From Candidatus Baldrarchaeota archaeon (GTDB lineage: Archaea > Asgardarchaeota > Baldrarchaeia > Baldrarchaeales > DXJG01), in assembly GCA_019056805.1 (NCBI GenBank), contig DXJG01000004.1, forward strand, positions 60,001-92,000: a DNA stretch of 32,000 bases, written 5' to 3'. Below the pieces are notes generated by a model. It did not search any database. It saw nothing but the letters and a program-made list of their open reading frames with translations, and was not told where the DNA came from. The stretch's first letter is position 1, and each line of letters starts with the position of its first letter. The position numbers and the translations under genes are program-made. Positions 1 to 4,692 of this stretch are shown in pieces.

Positions 1-111
1 ATCCCCCTAAAATTAGAAAAAATATCGAAAGAGTACTATGGAGAATCCCCTGTATCAGAATACGTAAAACTACTTATATTTTTCCTTTTTTTAAAGATTC
101 TGCCAAAATAG
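1..111 (+). CDS. 3' end of an upstream gene (partial, hypothetical)
   Basis: Frame +1 is open from base 1 (IPLKLEKISKEYYGESPVSEYVKLLIFFLFLKILPK) to TAG at 109-111, 5 nt before the next ATG; no motif recognised. Confidence 0.4.
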   Translation: MPLKLEKISKEYYGESPVSEYVKLLIFFLFLKILPK

Positions 112-116
112 GAAAT

Positions 117-476
117 ATGGTCTCAGTTAGTGAAATGAAACGGTTGATAGAGTCGGTTGGGGGCTATTGCTTTAAAATTTCTAAGCTTGTACCTATCAAG
201 GACTGGATGCATCAAGAAATTTTCCATTTATTTAAAACAAATATTGAGGAGAAAGTTAACAAGTTAAATTTACTTTTAGATAATCTGACAAAAAAACTAA
301 AAAGAGGGGAGATTGATAGGAAAGTAGCTCTTAAAAACCTCTATGAAATAAAGTTTCGTTTTCAGGGACTATTTTCATGCGCAATATTTCTGAAAAAATG
401 GTTAAAAATAGATGAAACAACCAACCTACAAAAAATTAAGAATAAGATAAGTAAAGTAAAGCAGATATTACAATGA
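117..476 (+). CDS. Hypothetical protein, 119 aa, basic and probably helical
   Basis: ATG-start ORF closely following the upstream stop; no family motif recognised. Confidence 0.55.
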   Translation: MVSVSEMKRLIESVGGYCFKISKLVPIKDWMHQEIFHLFKTNIEEKVNKLNLLLDNLTKKLKRGEIDRKVALKNLYEIKFRFQGLFSCAIFLKKWLKIDETTNLQKIKNKISKVKQILQ

Positions 477-793: not shown

Positions 794-853
794 ATGGCAA
801 AGAGAAAGGGGAGGAGGAAAAGAAGGAAGAAGAAAAAGGAACCCGGTGAATAA
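794..853 (+). CDS. Micro-ORF encoding a 19-aa very basic peptide, MAKRKGRRKRRKKKKEPGE (below the ORF-track cutoff)
   Basis: Translated by hand; GGTGA 5 nt upstream of ATG 794, TATA box at 754-761, TAA at 851-853, T-rich tract downstream; in-frame alternative ATG at 788. Confidence 0.6.
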   Translation: MAKRKGRRKRRKKKKEPGE

Positions 854-1036: not shown

Positions 1037-1951
1037 ATGGAAGATAACACAGTTTTGTTCTTTGAAGTTTTAAAGCTTTACACCGAACTTGTTGAACTTG
1101 AAAAAAGATTATCCACGGAGAAAAATATGCAACATGAATTAATACAAAATATCATGAGAAGAATTAAACGACTTAATAAGCTAAATAAAGATAATTGGAT
1201 TTTCTTCATCAAAAGTTTACCTTTGGAATTTTTCCTTTCCAGTTCTACAGATTTTACATCAAAAGATAATTTTATGAGATTTGTGAGAATATTTCGTAAA
1301 CATCTAGAGAAAAATATTGCTTACTCTCGATATTCATCAAAACTACATTTAAAAGATGCTATTTTTAAAGAAAACAAACTTCAACTACTTTTCCCCATGG
1401 AAGAGTTCAATCCAGGCTATTTATACAAAGAAGGATGGAAACCTGTTTTAATTACAGTTCCTCACGCAACTCCACCGTTCTCAGATAAAAATGTGGATAA
1501 AATAGCTTTACAAACAGCCAAATTATCTGGAGCACATGTCCTTATTTCAACAATTTCAAGAATATATGTGGACCCCAATAGACCTGAAGCTAGAATTACA
1601 CCGTTTAGAAGGATAATAGAGCGTCTAACATTACGAGAAGGAAAAATAAAAGTTATTTTGGATTTGCATGGCACTTTAAGAAGCGATGAAGAAATTGATG
1701 TTGAGATAGGGGTCTTTAGAAAACTTACTGCCGATGAGGAAATTATAGAGAAGTTGCTTACTCATTTTCAAAAAAGAGGGTTGAAATGTGAACTTGAAGT
1801 GAACAATTTTATTGGTGGCGATATTATTTTGCATCATTCCTTAGTTCCAGATATTCAGGCAATTCAAATTGAATTATATCCTAAAGCAAGAAATATACTA
1901 CGTAGAAATGTGATCGAAGCACTAACTGAATTTATAAAAGATTTTAAATAG
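1037..1951 (+). CDS. N-formylglutamate amidohydrolase / poly-gamma-glutamate hydrolase-like Zn hydrolase with an unknown ~135-aa N-terminal domain
   Basis: C-terminal half carries VLITVPHA, SRIYVDPNR, ILDLHG and IQIE motifs typical of the FGase-like Zn-carboxypeptidase fold. Confidence 0.7.
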   Translation: MEDNTVLFFEVLKLYTELVELEKRLSTEKNMQHELIQNIMRRIKRLNKLNKDNWIFFIKSLPLEFFLSSSTDFTSKDNFMRFVRIFRKHLEKNIAYSRYSSKLHLKDAIFKENKLQLLFPMEEFNPGYLYKEGWKPVLITVPHATPPFSDKNVDKIALQTAKLSGAHVLISTISRIYVDPNRPEARITPFRRIIERLTLREGKIKVILDLHGTLRSDEEIDVEIGVFRKLTADEEIIEKLLTHFQKRGLKCELEVNNFIGGDIILHHSLVPDIQAIQIELYPKARNILRRNVIEALTEFIKDFK

Positions 1952-1958
1952 GTGAAAG

Positions 1959-3428
1959 GTGAGAAATTTGTCAAGAGCGGAAGATTTTGTTTCTAAATAT
2001 GAAATAAAAATCGGGATTGAGGAAGAAGTTTTCATTGTTAACAAAAAAGGCTTTCTTTCACCTTTCTCTGAAGAACTTGTTTCAACCCTGATAAAAATGA
2101 TTGGAGAGGAGAATCAATTACTTGAGAACGCAAGAAGATGGCTTCTTGGACTCCAATGGGAACCTAATCCAAGTCAAATAGAATATGTTACTAGAGCAGT
2201 AAAGTATTGGAAAGTTAAAGATGCCATAAAATTTGGAAGAAAACTTCTTGGACAAGCAGCTAAGAAAATATCTCATAGAATATTTTTAGGTAGTATGCAT
2301 CCTATACAAAGCGATCCTCTCCCAATTAATGGTACACATATTAACATTTCTTTTAAGCCTGTAAATAAAAAGAAAATCTCTAAAGAACTTCTTACATATG
2401 TTTTCAACCACGTTAGAAATCATATACCTGAAATAATTGCTATGACGGCTAATACTCCGCTTATGGGAGGGAAACCTAGTGGTTATGCTAGTTCTAGGTT
2501 GGCGTTTAGCAGAGTTTTGAAACCTTCTAACTTTGCAGTTGTTAAAAGAAAACCTGTGACGGTTATTCCAAGGGAAATGCGTAGCTTTACAAGATACGGA
2601 GTCCTATTTGAGAAGCTTAAAAAATATAAAGCTAGAATAATCACTAATCCTCTCGGAGTAAGATTATTAGATATTACTCCAAGAGGACCTGACACGAACA
2701 TTGTAGAAGATATGAGAACAAGTGTAAGTACGAGTAGAATAGAAATTAGGGTTATTGATAATCAAATAACAGAGGAATATCTTTCAGATATAGTAAAAAT
2801 ACTTTTGGCTCTTTCAGTTGAAGCTATCTTCAAATTTGAGAAAGAAGAAAAGGTAACTGAGAGGAAAAAACTTTTAAGAAACAGAGATAGGGCAATTAAA
2901 AACGGTACTGCTGCTATTTTTATTAATGATGATGGAACCACTATTAATGCAAGGGAATCCATTATTAAACTAATGGAAAGAATATCACCGTTTCTTGACG
3001 CCTTGAATCTCAAGCTTGAAACTAAGCTTGAGTTAGGCATACCTGAAATTGAGGTTTTCGGAAGTCCTGATATCATTGACGAATATGAAGCCCTTTCAGA
3101 ACTAGAAAATAAGGGAAAAATATGTGTTGATGTAAGACTGGAAGGTAAAAGGCTTTGTAAGACTCTTTTTGGAGAAGCAGTTGAAATTGGAGAAATGAAG
3201 AAAGTCTCTGGACTTCTTTTCCCAGAATACCAATGTACATGGACCTACACAGGGAATGGTCTTATAAGAAACTTTAATAAAATAATTGTTAAGCATTGGC
3301 TGGCTACGAAGAATGGATATATTCCGATCTTCAAGAATGATAAAATCGAAAGGTGTAGAAATCCACTAACTCATCTATCAAGCATCTTTAATACTATTGG
3401 AAAACGAGTAATCTATCAATTTGCATAA
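1959..3428 (+). CDS. Glutamate-cysteine ligase family 2 (GCS2/YbdK-like) carboxylate-amine ligase with a C-terminal extension
   Basis: IGIEEE, QIE, MHP, GTHINI, ANTP, SSR and IEIRVID motifs in GCS2 order; GTG start with AGGTGA site, 7 nt after the upstream stop. Confidence 0.85.
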   Translation: MRNLSRAEDFVSKYEIKIGIEEEVFIVNKKGFLSPFSEELVSTLIKMIGEENQLLENARRWLLGLQWEPNPSQIEYVTRAVKYWKVKDAIKFGRKLLGQAAKKISHRIFLGSMHPIQSDPLPINGTHINISFKPVNKKKISKELLTYVFNHVRNHIPEIIAMTANTPLMGGKPSGYASSRLAFSRVLKPSNFAVVKRKPVTVIPREMRSFTRYGVLFEKLKKYKARIITNPLGVRLLDITPRGPDTNIVEDMRTSVSTSRIEIRVIDNQITEEYLSDIVKILLALSVEAIFKFEKEEKVTERKKLLRNRDRAIKNGTAAIFINDDGTTINARESIIKLMERISPFLDALNLKLETKLELGIPEIEVFGSPDIIDEYEALSELENKGKICVDVRLEGKRLCKTLFGEAVEIGEMKKVSGLLFPEYQCTWTYTGNGLIRNFNKIIVKHWLATKNGYIPIFKNDKIERCRNPLTHLSSIFNTIGKRVIYQFA

Positions 3429-3471
3429 AATGTAATCGGGTTAAATTCGCAACTCATAAAGGTGTATAGTC

Positions 3472-4692
3472 TTGAAAACACTAGAAATAAATTTTGACGA
3501 TGTTGAATGGGACAAAGTAGCCATGTACCCATATGCAGGTTTAGATTTCCTCTTAGGTAAGGATGAAAAACTATATTTTATTGAGGCAAACGCCATACCA
3601 ACAGGCATATTTTTTATCGAAACCATCTCAAAATATGTAGAAACCTTTTTGCCACTGAAAATGAAACCATTCATAAAATGTAACAAGGAAATCATCAAAA
3701 ACTTTGTTAAAATGTGTCTCAAATACTGCTATTATAAAAGTGGGAACAAACGGCCTTCAAATGCAGGAATAACTATTCCTGTAGACTGGCCAGGTTTTAC
3801 CTCAACAGAAAGAACACGAATAAAAGCAGCTTTTGAAGAAATAGGAATAAAATGCTACCTTATAAGAAAAAATGATTCCCAAAAAATAGGTTCAACATTG
3901 CATGTGAACATAGAGGGTCAAGATATAGTTCCAGACCTTATTGTAAGAAGAACTTTCAAATTTCCTAAAGATATAGAACAACCTGTCATAAACCCTGTTG
4001 AAACAGGAAAAATCACAGGAAATAAATGGAAGACATATCTTGCAGTTGAGAAGATTTTAAGCAAAAAGAAGGAACTTAAAAACATTTTTACACAACCTTG
4101 GACGAGAATGACGTATAAACCTGAAGAAATTTTAGAATTTTCCTATGATCTCCTTGATGCGGGTAAAGAAGTCGTCATTAAACCTTTAAATAGATTTGGA
4201 GGAAAAGAAATACTCTTTGTTAGGAGTAAAAGAGAGGCGGAAAATAAAATAGAATGTTATCTAAAGAAAAATGGGGATACGGACCCCGAGAGTAACGAGT
4301 CTTTTATAGTTCAAGAGAAGATCGATGTTATGCCTTTTCATGGCAGTGATAAAAAATTTTATGCTTTCGACCTACGAGTATTTGGTTTTCTTGGCAAACT
4401 AGCAGGAGGACAGATAAGGAGAGCTCCTTATCCACTTGATGCTAAAAGAGTTCCACTTGAGAAAAAATTAATTAGTAATATTTCATCTGGAGGAGTATTT
4501 GTTTTCCTTCTGTTTGGAGGAGAAAAGAACTTCACAACTTATTCTATTAAAGAAAAAATCTTTACTTTTCAAACCAGAGAACTAAAACTTGATGGTCACG
4601 TAGCCATAATTGGAGGTGAACTATTAGAAAAACTTAAGATAGCGACCCGAGAAATCATATCAGCAATAAATAAAGCAGCCTTAGCTTCCTAA
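3472..4692 (+). CDS. Circularly permuted RimK-like ATP-grasp ligase
   Basis: DLIVRR, INP..GNKWKT, VVIKP..FGGKEI, FIVQE, DLRVF, R..SNISSGG in canonical order, but the normally C-terminal YAGLD...FIEAN..P segment lies at residues 21-43; TTG start with upstream AGGTG. Confidence 0.85.
   Translation: MKTLEINFDDVEWDKVAMYPYAGLDFLLGKDEKLYFIEANAIPTGIFFIETISKYVETFLPLKMKPFIKCNKEIIKNFVKMCLKYCYYKSGNKRPSNAGITIPVDWPGFTSTERTRIKAAFEEIGIKCYLIRKNDSQKIGSTLHVNIEGQDIVPDLIVRRTFKFPKDIEQPVINPVETGKITGNKWKTYLAVEKILSKKKELKNIFTQPWTRMTYKPEEILEFSYDLLDAGKEVVIKPLNRFGGKEILFVRSKREAENKIECYLKKNGDTDPESNESFIVQEKIDVMPFHGSDKKFYAFDLRVFGFLGKLAGGQIRRAPYPLDAKRVPLEKKLISNISSGGVFVFLLFGGEKNFTTYSIKEKIFTFQTRELKLDGHVAIIGGELLEKLKIATREIISAINKAALAS

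What the first reader, a model, noticed from the sequence alone, without database searches (positions are those of the whole stretch)
3472..4692. ATP-grasp ligase with a clean circular permutation and RimK-type motifs
Seen: the metal-binding GxD...ExN strand pair (G23-D25, E38-N40) is at the N-terminus, and the protein ends with the helix (ELLEKLKIATREIISAI) that precedes that strand in RimK. Established: eukaryotic glutathione synthetase, glutathionylspermidine synthetase and the CP-ATP-grasp families are similarly permuted but usually carry R-x-D here. This protein has the RimK/LysX-like AGLD. Inference: either an independent permutation from an archaeal RimK/LysX/CofF-like ancestor or an intermediate relevant to the origin of permuted glutathione synthetases. 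The adjacent GCS2 gene makes the second option worth testing.
Basis: partly seen in the sequence, partly recalled or inferred. Interest (0 to 1): 0.7.

Follow-up and report, generated by a model that had tools for sequence, protein, structure and literature searches.

The report
Circularly permuted RimK-like ATP-grasp ligase
This archaeal gene encodes an apparently functional ATP-dependent peptide-bond-forming enzyme whose chain starts with the piece that normally comes last, cut at a different place from the well-known permuted glutathione-type enzymes, and it sits in a conserved three-gene operon of unknown product.

Summary
ORF 3472-4692 (+, 406 aa) is a real ATP-grasp ligase. Its Mg-ATP-binding strand pair (D25; E38-x-N40) is at the N-terminus, and its last helix is the one that precedes that strand in RimK.

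- **Family:** it belongs to a small archaeal family, 27 cluster representatives at E<1e-30 among 1.84 billion. D25, E38 and N40 are invariant in the ten aligned members and in 40 aligned permuted N-termini.
- **Re-permutation test:** moving residues 1-60 to the end turns two out-of-order matches to a conventional RimK-like profile into one collinear 81.7-bit match.
- **Cut site:** the AlphaFold2 model (pLDDT 84) aligns with conventional ATP-grasps over residues 96-400. It aligns with GspS, eukaryotic GS and CP_ATPgrasp structures only over about 9-350, where those chains end. Only PDB 3k1t (GshA, PF08886) aligns end to end. The cut therefore differs from the classical permuted clade.
- **Sequence affinity:** matches are to RimK, MptN, YheCD and TTL models, not to the permuted families.
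- **Origin:** phylogeny cannot settle whether the permutation arose independently.
- **Context:** the gene lies with a GCS2 ligase and an FGase-like amidohydrolase in 12 of 13 informative loci. The substrate is unknown.

Verdict: a new variant of a known kind, of moderate interest.

The parts
3472..4692 (+). Permuted ATP-grasp ligase gene (406 aa, TTG start, stop included)
   Evidence: family alignment; AF2 model pLDDT 84.3, pTM 0.83
3459..3465 (+). Shine-Dalgarno-like AAAGGTG just upstream of the TTG start
   Evidence: read directly; function inferred
3526..3594 (+). Residues 19-41: the two beta-strands with the metal ligands D25 (3544-3546), E38 (3583-3585) and N40 (3589-3591). In conventional ATP-grasps this segment lies near the C-terminus.
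   Evidence: invariant columns; profile hits to the C-terminal D..ExN of TTL, Ddl and BC; strands E21-29 and E34-41 at pLDDT ~90; out-of-order HMM match
3604..3756 (+). Residues 45-95: three helices. The first corresponds to the usual C-terminal helix; the rest join the old C-terminus to the old N-terminus.
   Evidence: secondary structure of the model; conventional structures start aligning only at residue ~96
3757..4521 (+). Residues 96-350: N-domain, central (lid) domain and the first half of the C-domain. Contains R159-R160, K185, K237, a G-rich loop, Q281-E282, D300, R302, R316-R317 and N336-x-S-x-G340-G341.
   Evidence: Pfam ATPgrasp_YheCD 183-341; invariant residues; collinear with RimK, LysX, ArgX and GshB from their residue 1
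4522..4614 (+). Residues 351-381: beta-hairpin insert between the NxSxGG strand and the last helix
   Evidence: model strands E355-358, E362-366 and E369-381; absent from RimK at this point in the sequence. The ~300-aa relatives were not examined for it.
4615..4686 (+). Residues 382-405: C-terminal helix, equivalent to the RimK helix (to residue 241) that precedes the D strand
   Evidence: VIA-align model 96..400 to RimK 1..241; RimK sequence
1959..3428 (+). GCS2 / YbdK-type carboxylate-amine ligase (489 aa), 43 nt upstream, same strand
   Evidence: Pfam GCS2 38.3 bits (cut-off 21) and NCBIfam YbdK family; adjacent in 12 of 13 informative loci
1037..1951 (+). FGase-like (N-formylglutamate amidohydrolase family) protein, 304 aa, with an unassigned ~120-aa N-terminal part
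   Evidence: Pfam FGase 39.1 bits (cut-off 28.9); adjacent in the same loci

Best explanation
The gene encodes a catalytically intact ATP-grasp carboxylate-amine ligase of RimK/MptN/LysX-like sequence type whose chain is circularly permuted.

Chain order:
- The two strands that hold Mg-ATP (D25; E38-x-N40) come first.
- A helical linker (45-95) leads into the normal N-domain.
- Then follow the lid domain (K237, glycine-rich loop, hinge Q281-E282) and the phosphate/substrate loops (R302, R316-R317, N336-x-S-x-GG).
- The chain ends, after a beta-hairpin insert, with the helix that in RimK runs straight into the D strand.

Inferred mechanism: it should work like any ATP-grasp ligase. ATP is clamped between the lid and the sheet completed by the N-terminal strands, a substrate carboxylate is activated as an acyl phosphate, and an amine attacks it.

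Cut site: the cut lies immediately before the D strand. That is one helix plus one strand later than in GspS, eukaryotic GS and CP_ATPgrasp, and apparently the same as in PDB 3k1t (GshA, PF08886). It is therefore best read as a separate permutation of a RimK-like enzyme.

Inferred role: in the conserved operon FGase-like / GCS2 / ATP-grasp it most likely performs one of two successive amide ligations on a small molecule or peptide. The likeliest reaction is addition of an amino acid, probably L-glutamate, through its alpha-amine. The FGase-type amidohydrolase would trim or reverse the product.
For: Shown:
- Real ORF, with independent contigs covering the 5' junction.
- All ATP-grasp catalytic residues are invariant in the family.
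- Confident model.
- Three-way split of structural alignments. About 35 conventional ATP-grasps align to model ~95..400 from their residue 1. All CP-type chains (3n6x, GspS, YgiC/YjfC, GS, homoGS, Cp1B, trypanothione synthetase) align to model ~9..350 and end there. 3k1t aligns 7..406 to 32..422, Z 18.3, 324 residues. The Atlas PF08886 cluster aligns 10-406.
- CP-type sequences end about 10 residues after NxSxGG, and Gss after the corresponding strand.
- Re-permutation test and N-terminal motif profile.
- Relatives show the swap directly in Pfam coordinates. For example, P0085 residues 2-32 match RimK profile 139-168, and P0042 residues 143-289 (of 295) match RimK profile 1-143.
- Sequence affinity is to alpha-L-glutamate ligase models (MptN, rimK_fam, LysX, CofF).
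- The three genes lie together, on the same strand, in 12 of 13 informative loci from Asgard and Thermoproteota genomes, in two gene orders.
- A conventional RimK fused to an FGase domain exists (P0111).

Inferred: the acyl-phosphate chemistry (established for ATP-grasp enzymes), glutamate as nucleophile, and the hydrolase's role.
Against: - No substrate evidence of any kind, and no expression data.
- The model rests on a 10-sequence alignment, and I could not inspect coordinates. That D25/E38/N40 face the nucleotide is inferred from ordered superposition on ligand-bound GspS, not measured.
- The identity of the cut with 3k1t rests on alignment ranges only. I could not obtain a PF08886 sequence to check its N-terminal motif.
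- The tree is unresolved at depth, and AU tests do not reject a single clade of all permuted forms.
- GCS2 is also the fusion partner of CP_ATPgrasp proteins, which could point to common descent.
- One Bathyarchaeota locus has the gene without the partners.
Confidence: 0.72

Rival explanations
1. It is a divergent branch of the established permuted assemblage (eukaryotic GS, GspS/YgiC/YjfC, CP_ATPgrasp_1/2). On this view there was one ancient permutation, the chain ends later shifted, and the GCS2 partnership was inherited from that ancestor.
For: Foldseek and VIA-align rank permuted structures first: 3n6x at Z 16.9 with 305 of 342 residues aligned, linker included. An Atlas cluster fuses GCS2 to CP_ATPgrasp. 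A tree with all permuted rows held together is not rejected (p-AU 0.83).
Against: The cut site differs by a strand, a hairpin and a helix. Getting from one to the other needs a second permutation anyway. R-x-D is replaced by G-L-D. No significant CP, GSP_synth or GSH_synth_ATP Pfam match in 10 members. The family profile prefers RimK (28.6 bits) to YgiC (11.2) and Gss (2.6). Sequential structure aligners favour any permuted target regardless of descent. The tree kept linker columns shared only by permuted rows, which biases towards grouping them.
Confidence: 0.28
2. It belongs to the same permutation event as the bacterial GshA family (PF08886, PDB 3k1t, annotated glutamate-cysteine ligase), and may therefore do a gamma-glutamylcysteine-synthetase-like job.
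For: 3k1t is the best structural match and the only end-to-end one: Z 18.3, model 7..406 to chain 32..422. The Atlas PF08886 cluster aligns 10-406 with TM 0.63/0.65.
Against: The PF08886 model finds nothing in this genome or in P0001 at E<=1. The A1 profile reaches 3k1t only at E 1.2, in the lid region. Identity is 12%. The N-terminal motif profile does not hit 3k1t at E<=10. A GCS2 ligase, the usual candidate for the gamma-Glu-Cys step, is already in the operon.
Confidence: 0.25
3. The ligase tags a protein or ribosomal peptide, with RimK- or TTL-like C-terminal glutamylation, rather than building a small metabolite. The FGase-like enzyme would be the de-tagging peptidase.
For: The nearest sequence models (RimK, TTL, YheCD, LysX) mostly act on protein or peptide C-termini. 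A 19-aa Lys/Arg-rich micro-ORF ending in Glu lies upstream at 794-853.
Against: The micro-ORF is not found next to the module in any of the other loci, and no conserved small carrier gene was seen. The GCS2 partner is typical of small-molecule amide synthesis.
Confidence: 0.15
4. The apparent permutation is an artefact: a misassembly, a wrong start, or a chance motif on a pre-ATP-grasp N-domain.
For: None found. It was considered because a short GxD...ExN pattern can arise by chance.
Against: The same architecture occurs in 27 or more cluster representatives and 13 loci from different genomes. The motif residues are invariant. The motif matches are statistically significant. Independent contigs are identical across the junction.
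Confidence: 0.02

Closest known systems
RimK / MptN / CofF / LysX-ArgX alpha-L-glutamate(-type) ligases (PF08443, TIGR00768) and the neighbouring YheCD, ATPgrasp_ST and TTL families
   Same: Closest by sequence. Same catalytic residues and G-x-D...E-x-N motif. Residues 96-400 superpose on RimK 1-241 and on ArgX or LysX 1-230 (Z 13-14, rmsd 3.0-3.6 A).
   Different: Chain order is permuted, with the last ~50 residues of RimK order coming first. There is an added helical linker (45-95) and a beta-hairpin insert (351-381). No model reaches its curated cut-off (rimK_fam 17.6 against 143 bits). Operon partners are GCS2 and FGase-like instead of S6, LysW or cofactor genes.
GshA family PF08886, PDB 3k1t (Methylobacillus flagellatus, annotated glutamate-cysteine ligase; structural-genomics entry)
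   Same: Best and only end-to-end structural match (Z 18.3, 324 residues, model 7..406 to chain 32..422). It therefore apparently has the same chain order and cut site.
   Different: No significant sequence similarity. It is bacterial (Pseudomonadota) rather than archaeal. I could not check its motif residues.
Classical circularly permuted ATP-grasps: eukaryotic glutathione synthetase, GspS / trypanothione synthetase / YgiC / YjfC, CP_ATPgrasp_1/2 (PDB 3n6x), fungal Cp1B
   Same: The D...ExN strands precede the N-domain and lid domain. Model 9-350 superposes on their last ~320-350 residues (Z 12-17). They are also linked or fused to GCS2 ligases.
   Different: Their chains end about 10 residues after the NxSxGG strand (Gss after the corresponding strand), and they have 90-300 residues ahead of R-x-D. 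Here the chain starts at the D strand and ends with the helix. G-L-D replaces R-x-D. There are no significant HMM matches.

Membership tests
ATP-grasp superfamily | Lid-domain Lys on a beta-strand plus glycine-rich loop, hinge Glu, and the D/E...E-x-N metal ligands | tested here: met
   K237, G244, Q281-E282, D25, E38 and N40 are invariant; Pfam ATPgrasp_YheCD 35.1 bits > 26.8
ATP-grasp superfamily | Three-domain ATP-grasp fold | tested here: met
   AF2 model pLDDT 84; Z 10-18 to more than 50 solved ATP-grasps
RimK family (PF08443 / TIGR00768) | Match to the family model above its curated cut-off | tested here: not met
   TIGR00768 17.6 bits against cut-off 143.4. PF08443 is not among P0001's hits. 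The own-genome PF08443 scan finds three other genes, not this one.
RimK family (PF08443 / TIGR00768) | Conventional domain order (D...ExN strands after the lid domain) | tested here: not met
   Out-of-order HMM matches; collinear only after re-permutation
CP_ATPgrasp_1/2 (PF04174, PF14403), GSP_synth (PF03738), eukaryotic GSH_synth_ATP (PF03917) | Significant match to the family models | tested here: not met
   None at E<=1 for P0001. Among 10 members there is a single PF14403 hit at E 0.056.
CP_ATPgrasp_1/2, GspS, eukaryotic GS | Cut site: chain ends just after the NxSxGG strand, with the pre-D helix N-terminal to R-x-D | tested here: not met
   Those chains end at model residue ~350, while this protein has 56 more residues. 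C-termini of YgiC, P0159 and P0129 lie ~10 aa after the GG, and Gss ends after the corresponding strand; all carry R-x-D except P0129. Here the motif is A-G-L-D.
GshA (PF08886) | Match to the family model | tested here: not met
   No match in the genome nor in P0001 at E<=1
GshA (PF08886) | Same chain topology as 3k1t | tested here: met
   End-to-end alignment 7..406 to 32..422 at Z 18.3; Atlas PF08886 cluster 10-406. This rests on ranges only, not on residue-level inspection.
GshA (PF08886) | Glutamate-cysteine ligase activity | not testable with these tools
   Needs an enzyme assay

The most novel reading that the evidence does not exclude
There may be a second, separately arisen class of circularly permuted ATP-grasp enzymes, cut immediately before the Mg-binding D strand. 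It would unite this Asgard/Thermoproteota family, about 60 further clusters of ~300-400-aa RimK-like proteins now annotated as ordinary ATP-grasps, and perhaps the bacterial GshA/PF08886 family. I found no description of it in the papers I could search. Its archaeal FGase-GCS2-ligase operon would make and trim an unknown glutamylated or gamma-glutamyl compound.
Probability: 0.4. Interest if true: 0.65.

Novelty: new variant of a known kind. Interest (0 to 1): 0.5.

Why it matters
Circular permutation in ATP-grasp enzymes is a textbook case of a 'rare gene permutation event', known from eukaryotic glutathione synthetase and its relatives. A second cut site, found in proteins that by sequence are RimK-like, would show that the fold has been re-threaded more than once. 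It would also give a natural pair of permutants for studying how such rearrangements arise and are tolerated.

On the practical side, these proteins are currently annotated as ordinary or partial ATP-grasp domains, because models match only the middle of the chain. Recognising the permutation would fix their annotation.

The conserved three-enzyme operon in Asgard and TACK archaea points to an undescribed small amide or peptide metabolite in lineages whose low-molecular-weight compounds are almost unknown.

Tried and rejected
- **Re-permuted family HMM against the hits.** This was uninformative, because HMMER sums domains regardless of order. I replaced it with a conventional-order HMM scored against native and re-permuted sequences. 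A first run mis-cut P0001 at a chance E-I-N at residues 5-7, corrected. A control cut at residue 130 also improved scores, since it too moves the motif to the end, so only the cut at 200 is a true negative control.
- **Maximum-likelihood tree of 97 re-permuted and conventional sequences.** Deep nodes are unresolved. AU tests reject neither grouping. Linker columns were not removed, which biases towards grouping permuted rows.
- **PF08886 sequence.** I could not obtain one to check its motif. The family is absent from the own genome, from E. coli and from the 14 control genomes, and a record handle cannot serve as a search centre.
- **Literature.** The comparative paper I remember on ATP-grasp and GCS2 amidoligases (Iyer et al. 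2009) is not in the held library. No held paper mentions 3k1t or PF08886 in this sense. So 'undescribed' means only that I did not find it.
- **Fused forms.** No fused forms of 712 aa or more were found; this is weak evidence.
- **Expression.** No RNA holder is listed among public runs, so nothing can be said about expression.
- **Upstream micro-ORF (794-853).** Tested as a conserved substrate and not found near the module in other loci.
- **ADP-forming acyl-CoA-synthetase-like neighbour.** Adjacent or near in some lineages only. The own genome has five paralogues elsewhere, so it was not counted as part of the module.
- **Profilin search as an Asgard marker.** It rang nowhere, controls included, and is uninformative.
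- **Complex prediction was not run.** I make no binding claim.
Full report
**1. The gene**

The ORF listing gives one ORF at 3472-4692 (+), 406 aa, TTG start. An in-frame TAA at 3457-3459 bounds it upstream, and a GGTG motif precedes the start. It follows a 304-aa gene (1037-1951) and a 489-aa gene (1959-3428) on the same strand, with gaps of 7 and 43 nt. It converges on a hydrogenase operon on the other strand.

**2. What the sequence models see**

Pfam and NCBIfam recognise only the middle of the protein. ATPgrasp_YheCD covers residues 183-341 and profile positions 10-161 of 255. There are weaker hits to ATP-grasp_3, ATPgrasp_ST, prokaryotic GSH-S_ATP, MptN and rimK_fam. The last ~95 positions of the YheCD model find no partner downstream. 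No permuted-family model (PF04174, PF14403, PF03738, PF03917, PF08886) appears at E<=1.

The neighbours are a GCS2/YbdK-type carboxylate-amine ligase and an FGase-family amidohydrolase, both above their Pfam cut-offs.

**3. The family**

- A word-indexed search found 9 relatives of 391-436 aa at 32-40% identity.
- In their alignment D25, E38, N40, K237, Q281-E282, D300, R302, R316-R317, N336 and G340-G341 are invariant.
- An exhaustive profile search of 1.84 billion cluster representatives found 241 proteins at E<=1e-3, 66 at 1e-10 and 27 at 1e-30.
- The 27 are collinear full-length relatives, and all start with the y-a-G-l-D-f...f-l-E-a-N block within about 50 residues of the N-terminus.
- Unexpectedly, most of the weaker hits do the same. 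Of 107 further hits, 47 carry the motif within their first 40 residues and ahead of the lid domain, and only 15 have it in the conventional place. Another 13 had been set aside earlier as permuted.
- Pfam coordinates show the swap directly. P0085 residues 2-32 match RimK profile 139-168. P0075 residues 7-54 match YheCD 202-251 of 255. P0042, P0055 and P0073 end at RimK profile position 143 of 188, or at rimK_fam position 230 of 276.

So the window's protein belongs to a small long-form family inside a wider, unrecognised set of RimK-like proteins with the same permutation.

**4. Statistical tests of the permutation**

- A 52-position profile of 40 permuted N-termini hits the C-terminal D...ExN segment of conventional ATP-grasps in the PDB. 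Examples are TTL at 310-337 of 380 (E 3e-6) and Ddl at 257-276 of 306. TTLL6 and biotin carboxylases are also hit. None of the solved permuted enzymes appears.
- The whole-family profile gives two out-of-order stretches on pyruvate carboxylase and on RimK.
- Against an HMM built from 14 conventional-order RimK-like proteins (E. coli RimK, the genome's own three RimK paralogues, and conventional hits), native P0001 gives residues 19-70 to HMM 247-280 (23.3 bits) and 161-344 to HMM 77-226 (59.4 bits).
- With residues 1-60 moved to the end, it gives one domain of 81.7 bits over HMM 77-280.
- The best single-domain score rises in 32 of 33 long forms (mean 74.6 to 92.5 bits) and in 33 of 33 short forms (76.2 to 107.3).

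**5. Structure**

AlphaFold2 on the 10-sequence alignment gives pLDDT 84.3 and pTM 0.83. Strands 21-29 and 34-41 are at about 90. Foldseek and two VIA-align runs split the solved ATP-grasps into three groups.

- About 35 conventional enzymes (RimK, LysX, ArgX, GshB, Ddl, TTL/TTLL, PurK, CPS and others) align from their residue 1 to model residue ~95. They stop at model ~400, which is RimK 241, ArgX 230 and GshB 266: the helix before the D strand.
- All classical permuted enzymes align model ~9-17 through ~347-355 and stop because their chains end. These are 3n6x (to residue 472), GspS (to 618 of 619), YgiC (386), YjfC (387), human GS (474), homoGS, Cp1B and trypanothione synthetase.
- 3k1t (GshA, PF08886) alone aligns end to end, 7..406 to 32..422, Z 18.3, 324 residues. 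In the ESM Atlas the PF08886 cluster likewise covers 10-406, whereas CP clusters cover 12-351.

The sequences agree:

- Gss reads G-R-M-D-F...E-Y-N at 316-332 and ends after the strand that follows its R-strand.
- YgiC has R-L-D...E-N-N.
- The CP_ATPgrasp_2 protein P0159 has R-I-D...E-L-N and ends about 10 residues after N-V-S-S-G-G-G.
- P0001 continues past N-I-S-S-G-G for 60 residues, through a hairpin to the helix.

The offsets put D25/E38/N40 on GspS D318/E330/N332. From my recollection of the GspS structure paper, those are its Mg ligands. I could not inspect coordinates, so this placement is inferred from ordered superposition.

**6. Independent or shared origin**

Favouring a separate permutation of a RimK-like enzyme:

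- The different cut site.
- G-L-D in place of R-x-D.
- Every significant family match goes to conventional models. All 10 members hit ATPgrasp_ST and YheCD, nine hit TTL and GSH-S_ATP, and one hits CP_ATPgrasp_2, at E 0.056.
- The family HMM scores RimK 28.6, GshB 13.8, YgiC 11.2 and Gss 2.6 bits.

Against certainty:

- A 97-sequence tree is unresolved at depth.
- Constrained trees with (a) all proteins of this cut type or (b) all permuted proteins as one clade were both slightly better than the quick free tree, and neither is rejected (p-AU 0.81 and 0.83).
- Linker columns, shared only by permuted rows, were not removed.
- GCS2 is also fused to CP_ATPgrasp in an actinobacterial cluster.

My odds are about 0.55-0.6 for a separate origin from the GS/GspS/CP clade and about 0.3 for common descent. 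Whether 3k1t shares the same event is open, at about 0.25.

**7. Context and likely role**

tblastn of the three window proteins on all fetched loci shows FGase-like, GCS2 and the ligase adjacent and co-oriented in 12 of the 13 loci with enough flank. Six have the order FGase-GCS2-ligase and six ligase-FGase-GCS2. One short contig shows two of the three, and one Bathyarchaeota locus has the ligase next to Mre11/Rad50 genes only. Several loci come from closely related genomes, so the number of independent lineages is nearer seven.

Named hosts are Bathyarchaeota, Methanodesulfokora, Nitrososphaerota/Thermoproteota MAGs and Njordarchaeota.

In a sample of 201 genomes of that phylum the gene occurs in 10, in 3 of 59 genera, and not in the three other genomes of the own genus (82-91% complete). 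The distribution is patchy.

A conventional RimK fused to an FGase domain (P0111) independently links the two enzyme types. The best sequence models are alpha-L-glutamate ligases, and FGase-family enzymes hydrolyse N-acyl-glutamate. I therefore commit to a two-ligase build plus one-hydrolase trim pathway, in which this enzyme adds an amino acid, probably glutamate, to a carboxylate. That it is a ligase in such a module: about 0.8. That the amine is glutamate: about 0.3. Protein tagging is the main functional rival.

**8. Reality of the DNA**

Contigs from two further metagenome studies are identical over 3300-3525 and 3300-3599. That range spans the end of GCS2, the spacer and the first 18-42 codons.

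**9. Verdict**

This is a new variant of a known kind, an uncharacterised family, and a so far unannotated second permutation site in the ATP-grasp fold, with 3k1t as its only solved example.

Noticed in passing
window 794-853 (+): A 19-aa Lys/Arg-rich micro-ORF (MAKRKGRRKRRKKKKEPGE) with a GGTGA motif upstream, between an unassigned 119-aa ORF and the operon. No comparable micro-ORF lies next to the module in the other 14 loci.
   Followed up: partly
L009:3380-3415 and L011:5481-5516: An 11-aa ORF, M-[VI]-KKRRVHPRR, starts 4-7 nt after the ligase stop codon in two Thermoproteota loci. It could be a conserved micro-peptide or just shared ancestry of two related genomes.
   Followed up: no
L004:123-1679, L013:4340-5896, L012:4345-5901, L010:3067-4617, L011:218-1624, L003:489-2024: A 519-aa CoA_binding / Succ_CoA_lig protein, like the alpha part of an ADP-forming acyl-CoA synthetase but lacking an ATP-grasp domain. 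It lies directly upstream of the module in Njordarchaeota-type loci and in one Thermoproteota locus, and 4 kb away in L003. The window's genome has five paralogues, none adjacent.
   Followed up: partly
L021 (GCA_016783545.1 contig, 10.9 kb): A short (295-aa) permuted RimK-like gene sits in a cluster with three more ATP-grasp genes, an F420_ligase-like gene and several unassigned genes. This is a different multi-ligase context for the same permutation type.
   Followed up: no
P0111 / L023:66-1559: A conventional-order RimK domain fused to an FGase domain in one 497-aa protein. It is a fusion counterpart of two of the three operon genes.
   Followed up: partly
window 1037-1400 and 3070-3428: The FGase-like protein has an unassigned ~120-aa N-terminal part. 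The GCS2 protein has a ~120-aa C-terminal extension beyond the usual ~370-aa YbdK length. Neither matches any model.
   Followed up: no
ESM Atlas rows 1-2: Two clusters of ~480-aa hypothetical proteins (699 members, mostly Bacteroidota; 86 members, mostly Promethearchaeota) align with the whole model 1-406 better than any named family. They are possibly further members of this permutation class.
   Followed up: no
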